NCBI GenBank assembly: GCA_964486505.1
Contig: CAZAMC010000002.1
Coordinates: forward strand, 129,656-193,655
DNA length: 64,000 nucleotides
Direction of reading: 5' to 3'
Source of the DNA: an uncultured Gammaproteobacteria bacterium
GTDB taxonomy: Bacteria; Patescibacteriota; Patescibacteriia; PEXW01
This document shows positions 1 to 8,609 of this stretch, one piece after another. The notes under the pieces are model-generated. The model ran no database searches. It had not been told where the DNA came from and saw nothing but the letters and a program-made list of their open reading frames with translations. Position 1 is the stretch's first letter. Each line of letters opens with the position of its first letter. The position numbers were made by a program, and so were the translations under genes.

Positions 1-79
1 ACAGCCTCGGCGACGGCATTGACGGGTTTTGCCTCTCTCTGCTACGCTGTGTAGTAGATTTAGCAACTGGAGAAATTCT

Positions 80-457
80 ATGGCAAAGCGCGCAATTCCT
101 GGGTTTGGTGAGCTGGAGACGGCTATCCTTGAGGTCGTGTGGCAGAGCCACCCGATTGCGGTTCGGGATGTGCTGGCCAAGCTGAATCGCGGTTGCGCGT
201 ACACCACAATTATGACCGTCATGCAGCGCTTATTTGATAAGGGCGTGCTGCGGCGGACCCTGGTGGATAATGCGTACCAGTACGAGCCGGCGCAACCGAA
301 AGCCGAGTTTGTGCAACGAACGATTCGTTCGACGGTGGACCAACTTGTCTCCGGTTTTGGTGATGTGGCCCTCGCGCACTTTGTGGATGCCCTAGATGAC
401 GTAGACCCCAGGCGTGTAGAGAAACTTCGCCGTACCCTGCGAAAGCATGAAAAGTAG
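80..457 (+). CDS. BlaI/MecI/CopY-family winged-helix transcriptional repressor
   Basis: ORF 29..457, internal Met MAKRAIPGFGELETAILEVVW... is the typical penicillinase-repressor N-terminus. There is no C-terminal CxC metal-binding motif of CopY. The stop overlaps the start of the next gene. Confidence 0.75.
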   Translation: MAKRAIPGFGELETAILEVVWQSHPIAVRDVLAKLNRGCAYTTIMTVMQRLFDKGVLRRTLVDNAYQYEPAQPKAEFVQRTIRSTVDQLVSGFGDVALAHFVDALDDVDPRRVEKLRRTLRKHEK

Positions 458-1400
458 CCGCGTCCTCATGTTCATGGGCGGTGGCAGTGCTGCGCTGATG
501 ATTGGGGCGAGCGTGGTGTTGGCATTCCTCTGGCCCCACGTCGTGAGTACCCTGAGCAATGCGCTACACGCGGTTACCTACGCCTGCCAAGCGGTGTGGC
601 AAGATCTGACACGCGCGCAGTTAGCCTTCGCCAGCCTGAGCGCTGGTGCACTGTTGGGTTTTTTGAGTTGGGTTGGCTACACGGCGTTCCGCGCAATTCG
701 CCTGTCGAAGCGGCTCGCATTTCCCCGACAAGAAGTTCCCGTGCGCGTGCTCTCCATTGCCGCCGACGCGGGCCTCGATCCTAGTCGTTTAACCGTTGTG
801 CAGGACGCGCGGGCATTTGCCATGACGACGGGTGTGCGTTGGCCAGAAGTCTTCCTCTCCACTGCGGCGCTCCGGACCCTTTCCCAGGCCCAGCTCCGGG
901 CCGTCCTTGAGCACGAAGCGCACCACGTCCGCGAGCGTGAACCCCTGCGTCGGCTTGTCCTGGCGCTCGCTTTGCTGTGGGTTCCGTTCCGGCGGTTACG
1001 GGATTACCTCCGGAATAACTACGTGACGGCTTCGGAACTCGAAGCCGATGAGCGCGTGCATGATCAGCACGTGCTGGGGGCCGCGCTCTTGCGCCTCGTT
1101 GCCCCGCCAATAGCGGCCGCTGGTTTTAGCCCGCTTGATGCTCGGGTGGAGCGCCTGGTGAATCCAGCATTCCGCCATACCGGGAAACCCGCGCTGCGCT
1201 TTGCACTGCTTGCTGTGGTCGCCGTGGTCGGGCTCGCCGTGCTGGCTCCGCATGCCATTGCCACGGTGTACGGCGGGCACCCCTCGTCTACCATGGCCGC
1301 CCACCTCGACATGTGCCGTGTGGAGCACGAGCGCATGCTGCAGTCACGAGAAGGGTCGTGCGGGCAGTTTTCCACCCCGCAAACTTGTGCCACGAAGTAG
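447..1400 (+). CDS. BlaR1/MecR1-like M56 zinc metallopeptidase, membrane-bound, lacking the penicillin-binding sensor domain; Cys/His-rich C-terminal tail
   Basis: N-terminal TM helices, HEAHHVRE (HEXXH) motif, 317 aa versus about 585 aa for true BlaR1. C-terminal tail ...HLDMCRVEHERMLQSREGSCGQFSTPQTCATK. Translationally coupled to the BlaI-like gene. Confidence 0.65.
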   Translation: MKSSRVLMFMGGGSAALMIGASVVLAFLWPHVVSTLSNALHAVTYACQAVWQDLTRAQLAFASLSAGALLGFLSWVGYTAFRAIRLSKRLAFPRQEVPVRVLSIAADAGLDPSRLTVVQDARAFAMTTGVRWPEVFLSTAALRTLSQAQLRAVLEHEAHHVREREPLRRLVLALALLWVPFRRLRDYLRNNYVTASELEADERVHDQHVLGAALLRLVAPPIAAAGFSPLDARVERLVNPAFRHTGKPALRFALLAVVAVVGLAVLAPHAIATVYGGHPSSTMAAHLDMCRVEHERMLQSREGSCGQFSTPQTCATK

Positions 1401-1401
1401 C

Positions 1402-2826
1402 ATGCGCACACCCGACGGCCAAGTCCTCCTCGATATCCAGACCAGCGGCATGCACTGCCGGAGCTGTGAGTTGTTGGTTGAGCAGTCTATTCAGAAGCTC
1501 CCCGGCGTTGGCAAGGTGCAAGCGAATGCCGATCGCAATCGGGTTCGCGTACTCTGTGACCAGCAGCACGTGCCCACGCCTCAGCAGATTGGCGAAGCCA
1601 TAAAACCGCACGGGTACACAGTGGTCACTGGTGTGGTCCAGCCAGCAGGCGCGCCAACAGCCAAGCGCCACCCAGGTACCCAAGCCGCAGAGCACCGTGA
1701 GCGTCCGACCGTTGCTCAAATTGCCGGCGCCTTCACTATCGTACTCGTTATTGGCTTTGCTCTCTCGAAGGCCGGGTTCTTGCAATTTAATCAAGCCGTG
1801 GATGGTTCAGCGGGGTTCCTGAGTGTTCTGTTCCTGGGCTTGGTAGCCGCAAGCAGCTCCTGCGTTGCCGTCGCTGGGGGATTGCTCCTCTCCACAGTAG
1901 AGCGCGTGAGTGATCGCTACGGTTTGCTTCCCGGCAAGCAGCGTTTCGTACCCGTCGGCACTTTCGTGGCGGGCCGAATTGTTGGGTACACCGTATTCGG
2001 TGCCCTCATTGCCGGGTTGGGGAAAGCCTTGGCGCTGCCGCCGTGGGCTACTGGCCTTATCACAATTTTGGCCGCGCTTTTCATGCTCGTCATGGGGTTG
2101 GACATGCTTCGCATTGCGCCAACGTGGTTGAAGGTCATCTTGCCCCGGATGCCGAAATTCATTAGCCGCAGAGTGATGAGCGGCGGAGAAGCAGGCAAGG
2201 TGAGCTACGCCACGCCATTCACCTTGGGAGCGCTGACATTCTTCTTGCCCTGTGGGTTTACGCAGGCGTTGCAGCTCTACGTCCTGACCACGGGTAATGT
2301 GGTAGCTGGCGCCCTTACGATGCTCGCCTTCTCTCTCGGTACTGCCCCGGCGCTCTTGGCGCTCGGTTGGGCGTCGAATGCACTGAAGGGTAAGTGGGGG
2401 AAGCTGTTCTTCCGCGTTGCGGGCGCGGCCGTCATTGTCATGGGGCTGTACAACTTCAACAACGGCCTCACGCTTACTGGGCATCCCGTGTCATTCAATT
2501 TTGGTACGGGCAAAGACGCTGCTCCCGTGGCGACGGTTGAGAACGTTGTTCTCGAGGGTGGCGTGCAGGTTGTGAAGACTGCATTCACATCCTCGGGGTA
2601 CTCGCCAGAAACATTTACCGTTGAAGCGGGTAAGCCGGTACGGTGGGAGATTGATGGTAACGGGAATGCAGGCGGGTGCCGCTCGGTCTTTCAGGTGCCG
2701 GCCTTCAAGATCCAGAAATTCATGAGTAATGGATTGACCGTCGCGGAATTCACTCCTGATAAACCCGGTACCTACGCGTTTAGTTGCAGCATGGGCATGT
2801 ATCGGGGGAGTTTTACCGTCATTTAG
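1402..2826 (+). CDS. Fusion protein: HMA metal-binding domain + polytopic membrane domain (DsbD_2/CcdA-like, Cys in two TM helices) + C-terminal cupredoxin-like domain
   Basis: ATG at 1402 immediately after the blaR1-like stop. GMHCRSCE (MxCxxC-type HMA). TM segments with ...ASSSCVAVAGG... and ...FFLPCGFTQA.... C-terminal FSCSMGMYRGSFTVI paralogous to the ORF at 3087. Confidence 0.6.
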   Translation: MRTPDGQVLLDIQTSGMHCRSCELLVEQSIQKLPGVGKVQANADRNRVRVLCDQQHVPTPQQIGEAIKPHGYTVVTGVVQPAGAPTAKRHPGTQAAEHRERPTVAQIAGAFTIVLVIGFALSKAGFLQFNQAVDGSAGFLSVLFLGLVAASSSCVAVAGGLLLSTVERVSDRYGLLPGKQRFVPVGTFVAGRIVGYTVFGALIAGLGKALALPPWATGLITILAALFMLVMGLDMLRIAPTWLKVILPRMPKFISRRVMSGGEAGKVSYATPFTLGALTFFLPCGFTQALQLYVLTTGNVVAGALTMLAFSLGTAPALLALGWASNALKGKWGKLFFRVAGAAVIVMGLYNFNNGLTLTGHPVSFNFGTGKDAAPVATVENVVLEGGVQVVKTAFTSSGYSPETFTVEAGKPVRWEIDGNGNAGGCRSVFQVPAFKIQKFMSNGLTVAEFTPDKPGTYAFSCSMGMYRGSFTVI

Positions 2827-2831
2827 CCAGT

Positions 2832-3029
2832 ATGCAAACGCAGACTCTCCCCCTCAAGAACATGGACTGCGACGCCTGCGAGCGCCTGGTAACCTTGACC
2901 TTGGCCGAACAGCCAGGTGTTCACAAAGTGCAGGCGAATCAGCGCGAAGTTGAGGTTACGTTTGATGAGCAGACGACCTCACCCGACGTGCTGCGCAGTG
3001 CCCTCGACGGCATTGGTCACGCTGCATAG
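2832..3029 (+). CDS. copZ: CopZ-like heavy-metal-associated copper chaperone
   Basis: MQTQTLPLKNMDCDACERLVTL...: MxCxxC motif, about 65 aa ferredoxin-like HMA fold. Confidence 0.7.
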   Translation: MQTQTLPLKNMDCDACERLVTLTLAEQPGVHKVQANQREVEVTFDEQTTSPDVLRSALDGIGHAA

Positions 3030-3086
3030 CCAAATCGCGCCGCCTGGGCTGCGGCAAGGCCTGGCAGATTTTTTCACCCCCGATAG

Positions 3087-3461
3087 ATGCTCACTATGAT
3101 CATCCTTGGCATCATTCTCATTATTCTCATCATCGGCCTCCTCGGGCTGTGGTTGCGCTCGCAACATCAGCAGGAAGCAGCAGTGGTGAACGCCACGGGT
3201 GCGCAGGAGGCAACCATTATCGTCAAAGGCGCATACCAACCGAACGTCGTCACGGTCCAGGCTGGAAAACCGGTTGTTCTCACCTTCGATCGGCAGGAAG
3301 ACGCGGAATGTTCACGGTTCGTTACCATTGACCGCGTGCACATCCGCCAGGATTTGCCCGCGCACCAGAAGACAGCCATTCGCTTCACTCCAGAGAAGCC
3401 TGGCGAATACTCTTTCACTTGCGACATGGGCATGTATCAGGGCCGCCTCATCGTCCAGTAG
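3087..3461 (+). CDS. Membrane-anchored cupredoxin-like protein (putative Cu(I)-binding)
   Basis: N-terminal TM helix, then ...AECSRFV...[15 protein letters not shown], paralogous to the C-terminus of the 1402..2826 protein. Confidence 0.55.
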
Positions 3462-3462
3462 T

Positions 3463-5661
3463 ATGGCTACCTGCGATCTATCCTTGAAGGGCATGCACTG
3501 TGCTTCGTGCAGTCAGCTCATTGAGCTTGCCTTGCGCAAGACCAAAGGCGTTGCCAGCGCCAACGTGAACGTGGCCACGGAGCGTGCGCACGTGGAGTAC
3601 GATGCGAGCGTTGTTGGCGTGCCCGCACTAGAAGCGGCCGTGAAGAAGGTAGGCTACGGCGCGCAGGAGCTGACAGCCGGGGGCGCTGATACCGAGCGGG
3701 CCGAACGGGACAAGGACATGGCCACAACGAAGCGAAAGTTTTTCGTTGCTTTGGCGCTCTCCATTCCCGTCGCCCTCCTGAGCATGGGCATGTACCTAGT
3801 GCCTGCCATTGAGGAGGTTCCGGGCCGGGCCTGGTTGCAGCTGGTGCTCACCACGCCGGTTATGCTCTGGTGCGGCTGGCAGTTTTTCACCGGCTTCTGG
3901 GGCGCGCTGCGAGCACGCACCGCGAACATGGATTCACTCATCGCCCTTGGCACGGGCGCGGCCTTTGTGTATTCCGTATTCGTTACGGTCGGACTCGTAG
4001 ACGGTGAGCTGTACTTCGAGATTGCCGCCATCCTCATTATGTTCGTATTGCTCGGTAAGTGGCTGGAGGCACGAGCAAAAGGCAAGGCGAGCGATGCAAT
4101 CCGAAGTTTGATGCAGCTGCAGGCCAAGACGGCTATTGTCGTGCGGGCTGGGCAGGATGTGGAGGTGCCTATTGAGCAGGTGGTGGCTGGCGACGTTGTG
4201 CGCGTGAAGCCGGGCCAGAAAGTGCCGGTGGATGGCAAAGTGCTAGATGGCCACAGCAGCGTGGACGAGAGCATGGTGACCGGTGAAAGTTTGCCCGTCG
4301 AGAAGCAAGCGGGCGACATCGTTATCGGCAGCACCATAAACGGCAGTGGCAGTTTTACCTTCACGGCCACGAAAGTTGGGAGCGAGACGCTGCTCGCGGG
4401 CATCATTAAGCTGGTTGAACAAGCGCAAGCCAGCAAAGCGCCCATCCAACGCTTTGCGGATCGCGTATCGGCGTACTTCGTGCCCACGGTCATTGCCATT
4501 GCTCTCATCACATTCGTTGCGTGGTACTTTCTGGCGGGCGAGACGTTTGTGGTGAGCCTCCTCAAGTTCGTTGCCGTCCTGGTTATCGCCTGCCCGTGCG
4601 CGCTGGGGCTGGCCACGCCCACAGCGATCATTACCGGCACAGGCTTAGGCGCGCAGAAGGGGATCCTCATTAAAGGTGGTGAGGCGCTGGAAGCCGCGCG
4701 GAAAATTGACGTGGTGGTGTTCGATAAGACCGGCACGCTCACGCACGGCAAGCCGGTGGTGACAGACGTCGTGTCTTTTGATTCAGCGCTTTCTCAGGAC
4801 AGGCTCCTCCAACTCGGGGCCGCCGTAGAACAGCGGTCCGAGCACCCGCTCGCTGCTGCAATTGTGCAGAGCGCGAAAGCGAAGGGGCGCGCGTTAGCCG
4901 AACCGCAGGACTTCCAGAGCGTGACGGGGAAAGGCGTGTCGGCAACTGTAGAAAGGCAGAAGCTCCTGCTCGGTAACCGGGCGCTGTTCGCAGAAGCGAA
5001 GGTATCACTCGGCAGCCACGAAAGCGATATTGCCGTGCTCGAGCGCCAAGGCAAGACCGTTATGCTCATTGCCGTAGACGGTCGGTTCGCCGGTATTATT
5101 GCCGTTGCCGATACCGTGAAGCAGTCGTCCAAGCAGACCGTAGACGCGCTCGCCAAGCTTGGCATTCAGTCTGTTATGATCACGGGTGATAATGAGCGCA
5201 CGGCCCAGGCCATTGCGCAGCAGGTTGGCATTGCGGAAGTGCGGGCGCAAGTATTGCCGCATCACAAGTCCGCGGCGGTCAAAGACCTGCAAGCCCGGGG
5301 CAAACGCGTGGCGTTCGTGGGTGACGGCGTCAACGACGCGCCCGCGCTCGCGCAAGCGGAGCTCGGCATTGCCATTGGCAGCGGCACCGACGTGGCTCTG
5401 GAAACTGGCCAAATCGTCCTCGTGCGAGATGACCTCATGGATGTCGTGCGTGCTATAACCTTGGCACGCCGAACGTTTCGGAAAATAGTTCAGAACTTGT
5501 TCTGGGCGCTGTTCTACAACGTCGCCGGTATTCCCATTGCGGCCGGCGTCTTCGCGGGCATCGGCCTCACCTTGCGGCCAGAGCTCGCGGGGTTGGCTAT
5601 GGCCCTGTCCAGTGTTTCTGTGGTGAGTAATTCGCTCCTCCTCAAGCGCACCCGGTTGTAA
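3463..5661 (+). CDS. copA: Copper-translocating P1B-type ATPase
   Basis: ATG at 3463 ([17 protein letters not shown], an HMA domain), CPC motif ACPCALG, DKTGTLT phosphorylation site, [10 protein letters not shown] hinge. 732 aa. Confidence 0.9.
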
Positions 5662-5702: not shown

Positions 5703-6743
5703 CTAGTACAGCAGCTCCCGATTTGAGGGCAGGACGACAACCTTGGTGATGTCCGGTTCCGCCAGCAGGTACTGGAAGATGCGGGACATGCCAAAGCCAC
5801 AGCCGGCGTGCGGCACGGACGGGAACTGTTCGAGCATGCCCAGGTACCAGGCAAAGCCCTCTTCGGCGTAAGTGTCCTTCTCCTTGAGACGGGCGAACAT
5901 GGGTGAGGCGAACAGGCGCTCCCGGAACTCATTTGCCGTGTGCACGCGCGCCGCCGAGCCAATGCACTCGCCGCCGAACGGCACAATGCAGTCGCAGCTC
6001 TGTACGTAGTCGGGGTCCTCCGGATCCGGCTGCATGTTGAAGAACTTGATCGCCAACTTGTCCGCTTTGTGCGCGAAGAGCAGCTGCATCTTCTCGCTCA
6101 TCGGGTTGGGGTAGTGGGTGATGAAGATCGGCCCGCCCCCGTGGCTGGTCACGAGGAGCTGCTCCTGGCTGGACGAGAGGTCGCTGCCCCACGGCAGGCG
6201 GAGTTCGGCGATAGCGTCGGCGTACCGAATGCGGGGGAAGCGCTCCGGGTGAGCAGCGAGGTGCCCCAGGTTAGCCGGCAAGGCGTAGGCCGGGCGGTCA
6301 TTCTCGGGCACGGCCAGGACGCTGCGCACGAGGGCGGTGACGAACTGCTCCATCTCCTCCAGCAAATCCTGGAACGAGCCGCGGAACTCGATTTCCACCA
6401 TCTCGAATTCGGTCAGGTGCCGCGTATCGATGGTGGCCTCGGCCCGTGCCGAAGGGCCCACGCAGTAGAGCTTGGGCAAACCACCTTCGCCCAGGAGCGA
6501 CTCCAGGTAGAGCTGGCCAGTCTGGGCAAAGTACGAGCGTTTCCGGCCGCCGTGGAACCAGCGCGGGTCGCCGTTCACGGTGATTTCGAACAGCGTGTCG
6601 ACATTCTCACAGGCACCGCTGGCGGGCACAATGCGCGGTACGGTCACGCGGTAGAAGCCGCGTTCGCGCAAGTGCGCTTCACCCGCCTGCATGAGCCGAT
6701 CGACGAATCGAATAGTGCCGAAGTTCGGCGTGTAGAAACCCAT
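5703..6743 (-). CDS. AsnRS-like catalytic-core protein without anticodon-binding domain (AsnA-type asparagine synthetase, or truncated AsnRS paralog)
   Basis: Class II aaRS motif 2 DTRHLTEFEMVEIEF (AsnRS-type RHLxEFxMxE), motif 3 GCGFGMSRIFQYLL. 346 aa, no N-terminal OB-fold domain. Confidence 0.55.
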   Translation of the reverse strand: MGFYTPNFGTIRFVDRLMQAGEAHLRERGFYRVTVPRIVPASGACENVDTLFEITVNGDPRWFHGGRKRSYFAQTGQLYLESLLGEGGLPKLYCVGPSARAEATIDTRHLTEFEMVEIEFRGSFQDLLEEMEQFVTALVRSVLAVPENDRPAYALPANLGHLAAHPERFPRIRYADAIAELRLPWGSDLSSSQEQLLVTSHGGGPIFITHYPNPMSEKMQLLFAHKADKLAIKFFNMQPDPEDPDYVQSCDCIVPFGGECIGSAARVHTANEFRERLFASPMFARLKEKDTYAEEGFAWYLGMLEQFPSVPHAGCGFGMSRIFQYLLAEPDITKVVVLPSNRELLY

Positions 6744-7856: not shown

Positions 7857-8609
7857 ATGGTTGAGCAGGATGAGCAGCGCAATCCTTCGCCATTGGCACA
7901 GCGGCATTGGTTTAAACCCATGCTCCTCCTGCTGGTGCTTTTTCTCGTGGTTTTCGTCGTTACGGTCATTGTGGTTGATACGCATCGGGTGAAGAAGGCC
8001 ACAGACCCGCTCGCTGAGCTCACCGCGGGGAGCGCCGCTCAGTCAAGTGTTGGGACGCTGCCGAGTGTCAACCGATCTGTAAACCCACAGCTTGAGACTG
8101 CCGACGATCCTGCCCTCGGTCCGGCCGGGGCACCCGTGGTTGTCGTCATGTTCATCGATTTCCAGTGTCCGTACTGCCGCCAAATGTTCCCGGCCTTTCG
8201 CGAACTTGCTGTAGCGTACAGTAATCGCGTGCGTTTCATTGTGCGGGATTTTCCCGTCACGCAGCTGCATGCGGAAGCGCAAGCCGCCTCCGAAGCGGCG
8301 GGCTGTATCTACGAGCTTGGTGGTAATGACAAGTTCTGGGCATACCATGACAAGCTCTACCTAAACCAAGACGCTCTTGGAACGTCCACGTACCGCACGC
8401 TTGCCACGCAAGTAGGTGTAGAGGATCAGGCTTTTACCGCCTGCGTCGAGAGTGGCCGTACGAAGACAGAAGTAGATCAAGACTTCCTCGACGGCATAGC
8501 GCTGGGCGTTACCGGCACCCCCACTTTCTTCTTCAACGGGTATCGGGTGCAGGGCGTGATTGCGAAGGACAAATTTGCAAAAGTGCTCGATCTGCTGTTA
8601 GCCGAGTAG
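7857..8609 (+). CDS. DsbA-like thioredoxin-fold thiol:disulfide oxidoreductase, membrane-anchored (paralog 1)
   Basis: N-terminal TM helix; active site FQCPYCRQ. Confidence 0.75.
   Translation: MVEQDEQRNPSPLAQRHWFKPMLLLLVLFLVVFVVTVIVVDTHRVKKATDPLAELTAGSAAQSSVGTLPSVNRSVNPQLETADDPALGPAGAPVVVVMFIDFQCPYCRQMFPAFRELAVAYSNRVRFIVRDFPVTQLHAEAQAASEAAGCIYELGGNDKFWAYHDKLYLNQDALGTSTYRTLATQVGVEDQAFTACVESGRTKTEVDQDFLDGIALGVTGTPTFFFNGYRVQGVIAKDKFAKVLDLLLAE

What the first reader, a model, noticed from the sequence alone, without database searches (positions are those of the whole stretch)
1402..3461. Two paralogous cupredoxin-like domains with a Cys...Cys-x-Met-Gly-Met site and no His ligands, one fused to an HMA domain and a DsbD/CcdA-like membrane module
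The C-terminus of the 1402..2826 protein (...GGCRSVF...FSCSMGMYRGSFTVI) and the stand-alone 3087..3461 protein (...AECSRFV...[15 protein letters not shown]) share a conserved motif. It resembles the cupredoxin C-terminal loop, but the two His ligands of blue-copper sites are replaced by Cys and Met. That suggests a thiolate/thioether Cu(I) site rather than an electron-transfer centre. The fusion partner has two transmembrane cysteines, like CcdA/DsbD thiol-reductant transporters, and carries an N-terminal HMA domain. This may be a periplasmic copper-delivery or copper-reduction relay. I do not recognise the architecture as a described family.
Basis: partly seen in the sequence, partly recalled or inferred. 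Interest (0 to 1): 0.55.

Follow-up and report, generated by a model that had tools for sequence, protein, structure and literature searches.

The report
CupA-type copper sites on both membrane faces
Both domains are real relatives of the known pneumococcal copper chaperone CupA, not a new fold; one sits on the cytoplasmic side next to the copper pump, and the other is fused outside the cell to an uncharacterised cysteine-bearing membrane module that probably passes copper (or reducing power) across the membrane.

Summary
The 1402-2826 product is HMA + one extra TM helix + a 6-TM DsbD_2 (PF13386) core + Cupredoxin_1. The 3087-3461 product is a TM anchor + Cupredoxin_1. The two cupredoxin domains are 38% identical and share an invariant Cys...Cys-x-Met-Gly-Met site with no conserved His.

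Both domains are homologues of S. pneumoniae CupA and the CopA metal-binding domain (PDB 4F2E/4F2F; E 2e-13; TM-score 0.91 and 0.82). In CupA the same residues (C74, C111, M113, M115) hold a binuclear Cu(I) site.

New points:
- Predicted topology puts the stand-alone copy in the cytoplasm, like CupA, and the fused copy outside the cell.
- All three cysteine sets of the fusion are invariant in 65 homologues: HMA CxxC, C154 in TM1 and C284 in TM4, and the cupredoxin site.
- The fusion sits next to copA in most of 83 loci from Patescibacteria and DPANN archaea.
- A two-domain version (DsbD_2 + cupredoxin) with an adjacent HMA gene occurs on Streptomyces, Mycolicibacterium and Deinococcus plasmids.

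My best reading is a Cu(I) thiolate relay across the membrane (about 0.4). The main rival is a DsbD-like reductant relay that keeps the outer site reduced (about 0.3). The domain is known; the architecture is undescribed in the literature I could search.

The parts
29..457 (+). BlaI/MecI/CopY-type winged-helix repressor (142 aa). It has no C-terminal CxC metal motif.
   Evidence: PF03965 Penicillinase_R 82.5 bits. It scores far below cut-off for CopY_TcrY (29.7 vs 121.95 bits). The sequence ends ...RRTLRKHEK with no Cys.
447..1400 (+). BlaR1-like M48/M56 membrane metalloprotease (HEAHH) with no penicillin-binding sensor domain. A conserved Cys3/His tail follows the last TM helix. Candidate copper sensor / anti-repressor.
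   Evidence: PF01435 30.2 bits; PF05569 20.9 bits, below cut-off. The tail H..AHLxxC..EHERMLQS..C..STPQTC is conserved in 7 homologues. It overlaps the repressor gene by 11 nt and ends 1 nt before the fusion gene.
1402..2826 (+). Three-domain membrane protein (474 aa): HMA - TM0 - 6-TM DsbD_2 core - CupA-type cupredoxin domain.
   Evidence: Pfam. AF2 model: pLDDT 82.8, pTM 0.77, seven TM helices. More than 3300 homologues.
1444..1620 (+). Cytoplasmic HMA domain with the motif GMHC19RSC22.
   Evidence: PF00403 41 bits. C19 and C22 are conserved in 63/63 sequences that have the domain. There is no signal peptide. The following linker is K/R-rich.
1711..1770 (+). TM0, an extra TM helix (aa 104-123). 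It carries the chain from the cytoplasmic HMA to the outward-facing start of the 6-TM core.
   Evidence: Kyte-Doolittle 2.15. AF2 helix 104-123 with pLDDT >90. TM0 is absent from the actinobacterial and Deinococcus two-domain relatives, where HMA is a separate gene.
1807..2475 (+). 6-TM DsbD_2 core. Invariant C154 (codon 1861-1863, TM1) and C284 (codon 2251-2253, TM4, motif LPCG) both sit at helix breaks. TM3 carries the Met ladder M228/M231/M235.
   Evidence: PF13386 120.5 bits; PF02683 25.3 bits, just under its 27.1 cut-off. Invariance. Helix breaks at 150-152 and 282-284. Positive-inside rule: K+R 14.9 in the predicted inner loops vs 2.2 in the outer loops.
2545..2826 (+). Extracytoplasmic CupA-type cupredoxin domain with C426 (2677-2679), C462 (2785-2787), M464 and M466.
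   Evidence: Foldseek best hits are 4F2E (TM 0.82, rmsd 2.2) and 4F2F. The family profile hits CupA at E 1.4e-13. The ligands align with CupA C74/C111/M113/M115.
2832..3029 (+). CopZ-like HMA copper chaperone (65 aa, motif MDCDAC).
   Evidence: PF00403 35.9 bits. Sequence.
3087..3461 (+). Membrane-anchored, cytoplasm-facing CupA homologue. The TM anchor covers aa 1-23 and the cupredoxin aa 40-123. Ligands are C75 (3309-3311), C112 (3420-3422), M114 and M116. The true start is probably 3096.
   Evidence: phmmer vs PDB: CupA 2.3e-13, CopA-MBD 2.6e-9. AF2 pLDDT 87.3. Foldseek 4F2E TM 0.91, rmsd 0.9. 0-1 K/R before the anchor and 1 after it in the window copy, 2-5 after it in the homologues. Fusion proteins with anchor + CupA-like + HMA + CopA and no intervening TM exist (P0179, P0164).
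3463..5661 (+). P1B-1 Cu(I)-exporting ATPase CopA with a classical HMA N-terminal domain, not a cupredoxin one.
   Evidence: TIGR01511 646.9 bits (cut-off 397). Pfam HMA + E1-E2_ATPase + Hydrolase. Motifs CASC, CPC377, DKTGT421, YN685 and MALSS713.

Best explanation
This is a copper-detoxification operon: repressor, BlaR1-like protease, 7-TM fusion, copZ, cupA-like, copA. It contains CupA-type Cu(I) sites on both faces of the membrane.

(1) The 3087-3461 protein is a membrane-anchored, cytoplasm-facing CupA homologue. It holds Cu(I) on a Cys75/Cys112 bis-thiolate site and a Cys75/Met114/Met116 site. Together with CopZ it feeds the adjacent CopA pump.

(2) The 1402-2826 protein is a three-station thiolate relay across the membrane. 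Cu(I) bound by the cytoplasmic HMA CxxC is handed to the invariant Cys154/Cys284 pair at the helix breaks of a CcdA/DsbD-fold core. It is released on the outside to the tethered CupA-type domain (Cys426, Cys462-x-Met-Gly-Met). That domain holds Cu(I) at the cell surface or passes it on.

Shown here: domain identities, fold, ligand conservation, an odd number of TM helices, charge-based topology, and linkage to copA and to HMA.

Inferred: that the species handed over is Cu(I) rather than electrons; the outward direction, which is the weakest step; and the energy source.
For: CupA identity:
- Sequence.
- Fold.
- Ligand alignment with identical 37-residue Cys-Cys spacing in the stand-alone copy.
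- CupA site chemistry: PMC5646241, PMC7558416.

Topology:
- Seven TM helices in a confident AF2 model.
- K+R 14.9 in the predicted cytoplasmic loops vs 2.2 in the outer loops, averaged over 65 sequences.
- The N-terminal HMA has no signal sequence, even in homologues with two HMA-like domains.
- Six-TM relatives lack TM0 exactly when HMA is a separate gene.
- P0169 has a K-rich linker flanked by TM helices after the first cupredoxin domain.
- Stand-alone copy: 0-1 K/R before the anchor and 1 after it in the window copy, 2-5 after it in the homologues. Natural fusions have anchor-CupA-HMA-CopA with no intervening TM.

Relay:
- All three cysteine sets are invariant.
- The cytoplasmic partner is a metallochaperone domain (GMxCxxC), not a thioredoxin. 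The partnership is kept either by fusion (CPR, DPANN) or by gene adjacency, 3/3 plasmid loci in Actinomycetota and Deinococcus.
- A Met ladder at i, i+3, i+7 in TM3 is conserved in the CPR family.

Copper context:
- CopA lies within the flanks of 69/83 loci, and directly downstream on the same strand in 57/83.
- Regulators include CsoR, a Cu(I) sensor, in 13 loci.

Precedent (my own knowledge): the MerP-MerT-NmerA thiol relay for Hg(II), and pmf-driven metal exporters in the LysE superfamily, to which DsbD-like folds belong.
Against: - No experiment exists on any member.
- The membrane module belongs to a superfamily whose characterised members (CcdA, DsbD, ScsB) move reducing equivalents, not metal.
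- A passive Cu(I) relay would run inward when external copper is high. Export needs an unidentified driving force or sink.
- CopA already provides export, so the relay looks redundant.
- The TM3 Met ladder is not conserved in the actinobacterial and Deinococcus relatives.
- One relative lies near merB, so Hg or import is possible in some lineages.
- Model coordinates and PAE were not available. I could not check that C154 and C284 are adjacent, or that either soluble domain docks on them.
Confidence: 0.4

Rival explanations
1. Reductant relay, analogous to DsbD beta-gamma or ScsB. The Cys154/Cys284 pair carries reducing equivalents, not copper, from the cytoplasm to the tethered external CupA-type domain. 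This keeps its Cys426/Cys462 pair reduced in an oxidising exterior. The domain can then bind Cu(I) expelled by CopA, or reduce Cu(II) to Cu(I).
For: - Homology to DsbD_2, and marginally to DsbD_TM, with Cys in TM1 and TM4 next to helix breaks and a Pro-Cys motif.
- A C-terminal extracytoplasmic Cys-pair domain sits where DsbD carries its gamma domain.
- The organism encodes a membrane-anchored DsbA-like thiol oxidase 2 kb away, so external thiols would be oxidised.
- CupA's cysteines reduce Cu(II) and become oxidised, and their electron source is unknown (PMC5646241).
- Precedent: the copper-induced ScsB/ScsC system and CueP in Salmonella (PMC10907172).
Against: - The conserved cytoplasmic partner is an HMA metallochaperone domain, not a thioredoxin fold. 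It stays the partner even when encoded separately.
- PF02683 (true CcdA/DsbD) scores below its cut-off.
- Related plasmid loci already carry separate CcdA and TlpA genes for the reductive pathway.
Confidence: 0.3
2. Inward thiophilic-metal uptake, like MerP/MerT. The external cupredoxin site captures Cu(I), Ag(I) or Hg(II) at the surface. It passes the metal through the Cys pair to the cytoplasmic HMA domain, from where CopZ and CopA (or MerA in other hosts) dispose of it.
For: - The arrangement is the same three-station thiol geometry as MerP-MerT-NmerA (my own knowledge).
- A Deinococcus relative lies near merB.
- A passive relay would naturally run down the external-to-internal gradient.
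Against: - Importing copper only to pump it out with CopA is futile.
- No mercuric reductase gene lies in the window operon, and none is among the called genes of the three relatives' loci inspected.
- Regulators such as CsoR imply induction by excess cytoplasmic copper.
Confidence: 0.1
3. The database annotation is right and the protein is a sulfite/organosulfonate exporter of the TauE/SafE family. Alternatively, the cupredoxin domains are ordinary blue-copper electron carriers.
For: Source names read 'sulfite exporter TauE/SafE family protein'. Cupredoxin_1 and weak halocyanin/plastocyanin hits appear.
Against: - Pfam gives DsbD_2, not TauE.
- No His ligands are conserved.
- The best structural and sequence matches are the Cu(I) chaperone CupA.
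- The genomic context is uniformly copper efflux.
Confidence: 0.03

Closest known systems
[quoted passage not shown]
   Same: - Cupredoxin fold (TM 0.91 and 0.82) and significant sequence similarity.
- The same ligand set, Cys + Cys-x-Met-x-Met. In the stand-alone copy the Cys-Cys spacing is the same (37 residues) and the numbering nearly so (C75/C112 vs C74/C111).
- The stand-alone copy has a single N-terminal TM anchor with a cytoplasmic domain.
- The gene lies directly upstream of copA, behind a BlaI/CopY-type repressor.
   Different: - CopA here has a classical HMA domain, not a cupredoxin one, and a CopZ is also present. The cupredoxin-cupredoxin pairing described for pneumococcus is therefore absent.
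- The second copy is extracytoplasmic and fused to a 7-TM protein.
- The family is said to occur in only a few streptococci (PMC5646241, PMC7558416). A profile of the stand-alone copy's close homologues (alignment A2), however, finds 2098 clusters (50% identity) at E<=1e-10. The fusion was confirmed in 587 stretches of species-representative genomes.
CcdA / DsbD / ScsB thiol-disulfide (reductant) transporters
   Same: - Related membrane fold: PF13386, clan relative PF02683 at 25.3 bits.
- A six-TM core with one essential-looking Cys in TM1 and one in TM4 at helix breaks.
- A Cys-pair domain attached on the extracytoplasmic C-terminal side, as in DsbD-gamma.
- ScsB is likewise copper-induced and works with the copper-binding proteins ScsC and CueP (PMC10907172).
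   Different: - No thioredoxin-fold domain on either side. HMA takes the place of thioredoxin and a cupredoxin takes the place of DsbD-gamma.
- The score is below the PF02683 gathering threshold.
- No solved relative of the membrane module was found by sequence.
MerP-MerT(-NmerA) mercury thiol relay and MerTP / MerT-CopZ fusion proteins
   Same: An HMA CxxC domain coupled, by fusion or as a partner, to a small membrane protein that carries the metal on transmembrane cysteines. Metal moves by successive thiol ligand exchange.
   Different: - No sequence homology in the membrane part. The NCBIfam MerTP and MerT_CopZ hits cover only the HMA domain.
- HMA is cytoplasmic here and the outer station is a cupredoxin.
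- The context is copper efflux.
HMA + DsbD_2 + DUF2318 membrane proteins (COG2836) of the Firmicutes CsoR regulon
   Same: An HMA-DsbD_2 fusion under a copper-responsive repressor, sometimes in an operon with copA, annotated only as heavy-metal transport/detoxification (PMC4938975).
   Different: The C-terminal module is DUF2318 there and a CupA-type cupredoxin here. Neither protein has been characterised.

Membership tests
CupA-type cupredoxin Cu(I) chaperone / CopA-MBD (PDB 4F2E, 4F2F) | Cupredoxin beta-sandwich fold superposable on CupA | tested here: met
   The AF2 models are confident. Foldseek top hits are 4F2E and 4F2F for both domains: TM 0.91/0.90 with rmsd 0.9 for the stand-alone copy, and TM 0.82/0.81 for the fused copy.
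CupA-type cupredoxin Cu(I) chaperone / CopA-MBD (PDB 4F2E, 4F2F) | Significant sequence homology to CupA | tested here: met
   phmmer gives E 2.3e-13 for the stand-alone copy. The fused copy gives 1.4e-4 alone and 1.4e-13 with the family profile.
CupA-type cupredoxin Cu(I) chaperone / CopA-MBD (PDB 4F2E, 4F2F) | Ligand set Cys (site 1 and bridging) + Cys-x-Met-x-Met, conserved and aligned with C74/C111/M113/M115 | tested here: met
   Alignment A3 and the HMMER alignment. The ligands are invariant in both families. In the fused domain the first Cys is offset by one alignment column.
CupA-type cupredoxin Cu(I) chaperone / CopA-MBD (PDB 4F2E, 4F2F) | Single N-terminal TM anchor with the soluble domain in the cytoplasm | tested here: inconclusive
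   The stand-alone copy meets this by prediction and by natural anchor-CupA-HMA-CopA fusions. The fused copy does not: it follows seven TM helices and is predicted to lie outside. There is no experimental topology.
CupA-type cupredoxin Cu(I) chaperone / CopA-MBD (PDB 4F2E, 4F2F) | [quoted passage not shown] | tested here: not met
   CopA at 3463-5661 has an HMA domain at aa 7-65 and no Cupredoxin_1 hit.
CupA-type cupredoxin Cu(I) chaperone / CopA-MBD (PDB 4F2E, 4F2F) | Binds a binuclear Cu(I) cluster and is needed for copper resistance | not testable with these tools
   This needs metal-binding assays and genetics.
Pfam Cupredoxin_1 (PF13473) | Score above the gathering threshold (27 bits) | tested here: met
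   80.2 bits for the stand-alone copy and 41.7 bits for the fused copy.
CcdA/DsbD thiol-disulfide transporters (PF02683 DsbD_TM) | Score above the PF02683 gathering threshold | tested here: not met
   25.3 bits vs a 27.1 cut-off. The sister family DsbD_2 (PF13386) is met at 120.5 bits.
CcdA/DsbD thiol-disulfide transporters (PF02683 DsbD_TM) | Six-TM core with one conserved Cys in TM1 and one in TM4 | tested here: met
   C154 and C284 are invariant in 65/65 and also in 3 distant relatives. Helix breaks lie beside both.
CcdA/DsbD thiol-disulfide transporters (PF02683 DsbD_TM) | Thioredoxin-fold electron donor and acceptor partners or domains | tested here: not met
   The fused or adjacent partners are HMA and cupredoxin, with no thioredoxin-fold domain in the protein. 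A cytosolic thioredoxin donor cannot be excluded.
CcdA/DsbD thiol-disulfide transporters (PF02683 DsbD_TM) | Transfers reducing equivalents across the membrane | not testable with these tools
   This needs thiol-trapping and redox-state experiments.
Type-1 blue copper electron-transfer cupredoxins | His, Cys, His, Met ligand set | tested here: not met
   No conserved His in either domain family.
TauE/SafE sulfite exporters (the name given by the source databases) | Match to the TauE/SafE family model | tested here: not met
   No TauE hit at E<=0.1 in Pfam or NCBIfam. The membrane module matches DsbD_2.
MerT-type mercury transporters | Homology of the membrane part to MerT | tested here: not met
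   The NCBIfam MerTP and MerT_CopZ hits cover only residues 4-74, which is the HMA domain.

The most novel reading that the evidence does not exclude
The HMA - CcdA/DsbD-fold - CupA-type cupredoxin protein is a new class of ATP-independent copper transporter. In it, the transmembrane cysteine pair that moves electrons in CcdA/DsbD has been re-used to carry Cu(I) itself. The metal travels from a cytoplasmic metallochaperone domain to an extracellular Cu(I) chaperone domain. The system is widespread in the reduced genomes of Patescibacteria and DPANN archaea, and present as a split system in Actinomycetota and Deinococcus.
Probability: 0.35. Interest if true: 0.8.

Novelty: new variant of a known kind. 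Interest (0 to 1): 0.55.

Why it matters
- CupA is treated in the literature as a streptococcal oddity. These data show that CupA-type Cys/Met cupredoxin sites form a large family: 2098 clusters at E<=1e-10. They occur as anchored chaperones, as N-terminal CopA domains and as external domains of membrane proteins.
- The fusion physically links three copper-type thiolate sites across a membrane on a CcdA/DsbD-like scaffold. Either it reveals a non-ATPase route for Cu(I) across the membrane, or it supplies the missing electron source that resets the cysteines of a CupA-type site. That source is an open point in PMC5646241.
- The two-domain version exists in cultivable Streptomyces, Mycolicibacterium and Deinococcus, so both readings can be tested directly.
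- The fusion is also one of the few metal-homeostasis modules retained across both CPR bacteria and DPANN archaea.

Tried and rejected
- Model coordinates and PAE are not exposed. I could not measure the C154-C284 distance or assess domain docking.
- The look-up of encoding contigs had no record for the exact window protein, so homologues were used instead.
- The Fu et al. 2013 and 2016 primary CupA papers are not held. CupA facts are cited from PMC5646241 and PMC7558416.
- Literature searches for PF13386; for DsbD_2 with copper; for Patescibacteria with cupredoxin; for CcdA with HMA; and for TauE with cupredoxin found nothing on this architecture. The one exception is the COG2836 mention in PMC4938975.
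- The TM3 Met ladder looked like a Cu(I) conduit, but it is not conserved outside the CPR family. It is only weak support.
- C. glutamicum cg3283-cg3282-copB (PMC3140484) looked like a possible characterised homologous cluster. I could not obtain the cg3283 sequence, so this lead is untested.
- The terminator-like hairpin between copZ and cupA is not above shuffle expectation.
- The blue-copper and TauE/SafE readings are rejected.
Full report
**1. Observation**

The + strand of window 29-5661 carries six tightly packed genes:
- a BlaI/CopY-type repressor (29-457);
- a BlaR1-like M48/M56 membrane protease (447-1400);
- the 474-aa protein of the finding (1402-2826);
- a 65-aa CopZ-like HMA protein (2832-3029);
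- the 124-aa protein of the finding (3087-3461, more likely starting at 3096);
- a P1B-1 Cu(I) ATPase CopA (3463-5661). It scores 646.9 bits on TIGR01511 and has CPC, DKTGT, YN and MALSS motifs and an HMA N-domain.

The 474-aa protein has HMA (aa 15-73), DsbD_2 (aa 142-350, 120.5 bits) and Cupredoxin_1 (aa 388-473). The small protein has Cupredoxin_1 at 80.2 bits.

The two cupredoxin domains are 38% identical, E 3e-18. The Cys...Cys-x-Met-Gly-Met site is invariant in 65 homologues of the fusion. In 33 homologues of the small protein the two Cys are invariant and the two Met are kept in 32 of 33. Neither family has a conserved His. The two transmembrane cysteines, C154 and C284, are invariant too.

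**2. What the domains are**

The small protein hits S. pneumoniae CupA (PDB 2MRY/4F2E) at E 2.3e-13 and the cupredoxin-like metal-binding domain of pneumococcal CopA (4F2F) at 2.6e-9. The fused domain hits CupA at 1.4e-4 alone and at 1.4e-13 with its family profile.

The AlphaFold models are confident: pLDDT 87.3 and 82.8, with pTM 0.77 for the whole 474-aa protein. Their best PDB matches are 4F2E and 4F2F, with TM 0.91/0.90 and rmsd 0.9 for the small protein, and TM 0.82/0.81 for the fused domain. These score ahead of CuA domains and the B. anthracis Cupredoxin_1 protein.

In CupA, C74 and C111 form the high-affinity bis-thiolate Cu(I) site. C74, M113 and M115 form the second site (PMC5646241, PMC7558416). 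These align with C75/C112/M114/M116 of the small protein, with identical 37-residue spacing, and with C426/C462/M464/M466 of the fusion.

**3. Topology: the two copies face opposite sides**

*The fusion.* The model has seven TM helices:
- TM0, aa 104-123;
- then a six-helix core: 136-173, 178-210, 214-235, 270-297, 300-324 and 331-358;
- TM1 and TM4 are broken next to C154 and C284.

An odd helix count puts HMA and the cupredoxin domain on opposite faces.

Averaged over 65 sequences, the loops predicted to be cytoplasmic carry 14.9 K+R and the outer loops 2.2. The HMA domain has no signal sequence. This holds even in homologues with an additional degenerate HMA-like domain before it. So HMA is inside and the cupredoxin domain is outside.

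Two independent observations agree with this:
- Relatives on Mycolicibacterium, Deinococcus and Streptomyces plasmids are DsbD_2 + Cupredoxin_1 proteins of 335-363 aa. They start directly with TM1, lack TM0, and are each followed by a separate HMA gene. TM0 therefore exists only where a cytoplasmic HMA has to be joined to an outward-starting core.
- In P0169 the first cupredoxin domain is followed by a TM helix, a lysine-rich linker, another TM helix and a second cupredoxin domain.

*The small protein.* It has a hydrophobic anchor with 0-1 K/R before it. One R follows the anchor in the window copy, and 2-5 K/R in the homologues (motif WLRFQRKQE). This predicts N-out/C-in.

Natural proteins exist in which this same anchor and CupA-like domain are joined to HMA and a CopA ATPase. 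In P0179, whose sequence I checked, the join is a hydrophilic linker with no TM helix (P0179 and P0164). This type of CupA domain must therefore share the cytoplasm with HMA and the ATPase, as described for pneumococcal CupA.

**4. Distribution and context**

The three-domain fusion has more than 3300 homologues in the metagenomic protein collection. Almost all are from Patescibacteria MAGs and are named 'sulfite exporter TauE/SafE family protein'.

They come from many CPR lineages and also from DPANN archaea, with Woesearchaeota and Nanoarchaeota titles at 37-39% identity over the full length.

Counts in the 83 loci examined:
- CopA lies within the flanks in 69, and directly downstream on the same strand in 57. 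It lies upstream in the archaeal loci.
- The stand-alone CupA-like gene is present in 22.
- A CsoR is present in 13.
- The BlaI + M56 pair is present in 7-8.

The conserved core is therefore the fusion plus copA, with interchangeable copper regulators.

A profile of the stand-alone family finds 2098 clusters (50% identity) at E<=1e-10. Architectures include tandem cupredoxins and N-terminal CopA fusions. This contrasts with the statement that CupA occurs in only a few streptococci (PMC5646241, PMC7558416).

**5. Mechanism**

*Shown.* The protein has three invariant sulfur sites arranged in, within and outside the membrane. It has constant linkage to a Cu(I) pump and to copper regulators. Its partnership with an HMA metallochaperone is conserved by fusion or by adjacency.

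*Best inference (about 0.4).* Cu(I) itself is relayed from HMA CxxC to the C154/C284 pair and then to the external CupA-type site, working alongside CopA. The small protein and CopZ serve CopA on the cytoplasmic side.

Points in favour:
- The cytoplasmic partner is a GMxCxxC metallochaperone domain rather than a thioredoxin.
- The CPR family has a Met ladder on one face of TM3 (M228/M231/M235).
- The MerP-MerT-NmerA thiol relay is a precedent, as are pmf-driven metal exporters in the LysE superfamily (my own knowledge).

Points against:
- The characterised relatives of the fold move electrons.
- A passive relay would run inward under copper stress.
- The Met ladder is not kept in distant relatives.
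- The direction and the energy source are unknown.

*Main rival (about 0.3).* This is a DsbD-like reductant relay that keeps the external Cys pair reduced.

Points in favour:
- An adjacent DsbA-like oxidase at 7857-8609.
- The unknown electron source for CupA's cysteines (PMC5646241).
- The copper-induced ScsB/ScsC and CueP systems (PMC10907172).

*Other readings.* An inward Mer-like uptake role (about 0.1) is suggested by a merB neighbour in Deinococcus, but it is futile next to CopA. The database name TauE/SafE and a blue-copper role are rejected.

**6. Comparison with known families and novelty**

The small protein is a new, phylogenetically remote member of the CupA family. One defining feature is not met: its CopA has an HMA N-domain, not a cupredoxin one, and a CopZ coexists.

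The fusion is a new variant. It is a CupA-type site placed outside the cell on a DsbD_2 scaffold with a cytoplasmic HMA. It is not a bona fide CcdA/DsbD: it scores below the PF02683 threshold and has no thioredoxin-fold partners. It is also not homologous to MerT.

I found no description of it in the searchable literature and no curated NCBIfam model. The nearest mention is the uncharacterised HMA-DsbD_2-DUF2318 group in the Firmicutes CsoR regulon (PMC4938975).

**7. Verdict**

The feature is real and conserved. The domain is already known, and the architecture and its two-sided arrangement are undescribed. Function is inferred only. Interest is moderate to good (0.55), because the two leading mechanisms can be separated experimentally in cultivable hosts that carry the two-domain version.

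Noticed in passing
window 447-1400 (with 29-457): The BlaR1-like M48/M56 protease has no penicillin-binding sensor domain. Instead it ends in a ~50-aa tail after the last TM helix, with a conserved H..AHLxxC..EHERMLQS..C..STPQTC motif (three Cys plus His) kept in 7 CPR homologues. Together with a BlaI-type repressor that lacks the CopY CxC motif, this looks like a proteolytic copper-sensing switch controlling a cop operon. Streptomyces plasmid pFRL6 also has an M56 + BlaI pair beside its homologous gene (L089).
   Followed up: partly
window 7857-8609: A membrane-anchored DsbA-like thiol oxidase (Thioredoxin_4/DSBA, motif FQCPYC) lies 2 kb downstream of the cop operon, in the same position in locus L001. 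It implies that extracytoplasmic thiols are actively oxidised in this organism.
   Followed up: partly
loci L064-L066, L072, L077, L078, L084: Full-length homologues of the three-domain fusion (37-39% identity) occur in DPANN archaeal MAGs (Woesearchaeota, Nanoarchaeota). In several of these loci (L064, L066, L078, L084) copA lies upstream rather than downstream. This suggests exchange of the module between CPR bacteria and DPANN archaea. Several 'uncultured Gammaproteobacteria' record titles among the hits look like placeholder taxonomy.
   Followed up: no
proteins P0179, P0164, P0167, P0169: CupA-like domains occur in other architectures: TM anchor + one or two CupA-like domains, with HMA (P0179, P0164) or without it (P0167), fused to the N-terminus of CopA; and DsbD_2 + cupredoxin + TM + lysine-rich linker + TM + second cupredoxin (P0169). 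P0169 has two Cys in TM1 (motif SFHCVAMCG).
   Followed up: partly
homologues P0015, P0016, P0021, P0038, P0063, P0092: [quoted passage not shown] It sits ahead of the functional HMA domain.
   Followed up: no
window 3044-3073: A terminator-like hairpin (7-bp stem, then T6) lies in the 57-nt gap between copZ and the cupA-like gene, followed by weak promoter-like hexamers at 3071-3100. The operon may be read as two units, but the counts are not above shuffle expectation.
   Followed up: partly
window 3087-3096: The stand-alone cupredoxin gene more likely starts at the second ATG (3096, 121 aa). The database copy P0121 and all homologues begin there.
   Followed up: yes
loci L087 (Mycolicibacterium pJCM15296), L088 (Deinococcus sp. 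QL22), L089 (Streptomyces pFRL6): Cultivable bacteria carry the DsbD_2 + CupA-type cupredoxin gene followed by a separate HMA gene. The neighbours include P1B ATPases, TlpA, CcdA, an ArsR/SmtB regulator, a MerR-type heavy-metal regulator and merB. All are annotated 'sulfite exporter TauE/SafE family protein', which looks like a misnomer.
   Followed up: partly
window 5703-6743 (- strand): A 346-aa class II aminoacyl-tRNA-synthetase-like protein consists of the catalytic core only (tRNA-synt_2, no anticodon-binding domain). It is convergent with copA and syntenic in L001. It may be an AsnA, EpmA or other aaRS paralogue.
   Followed up: no
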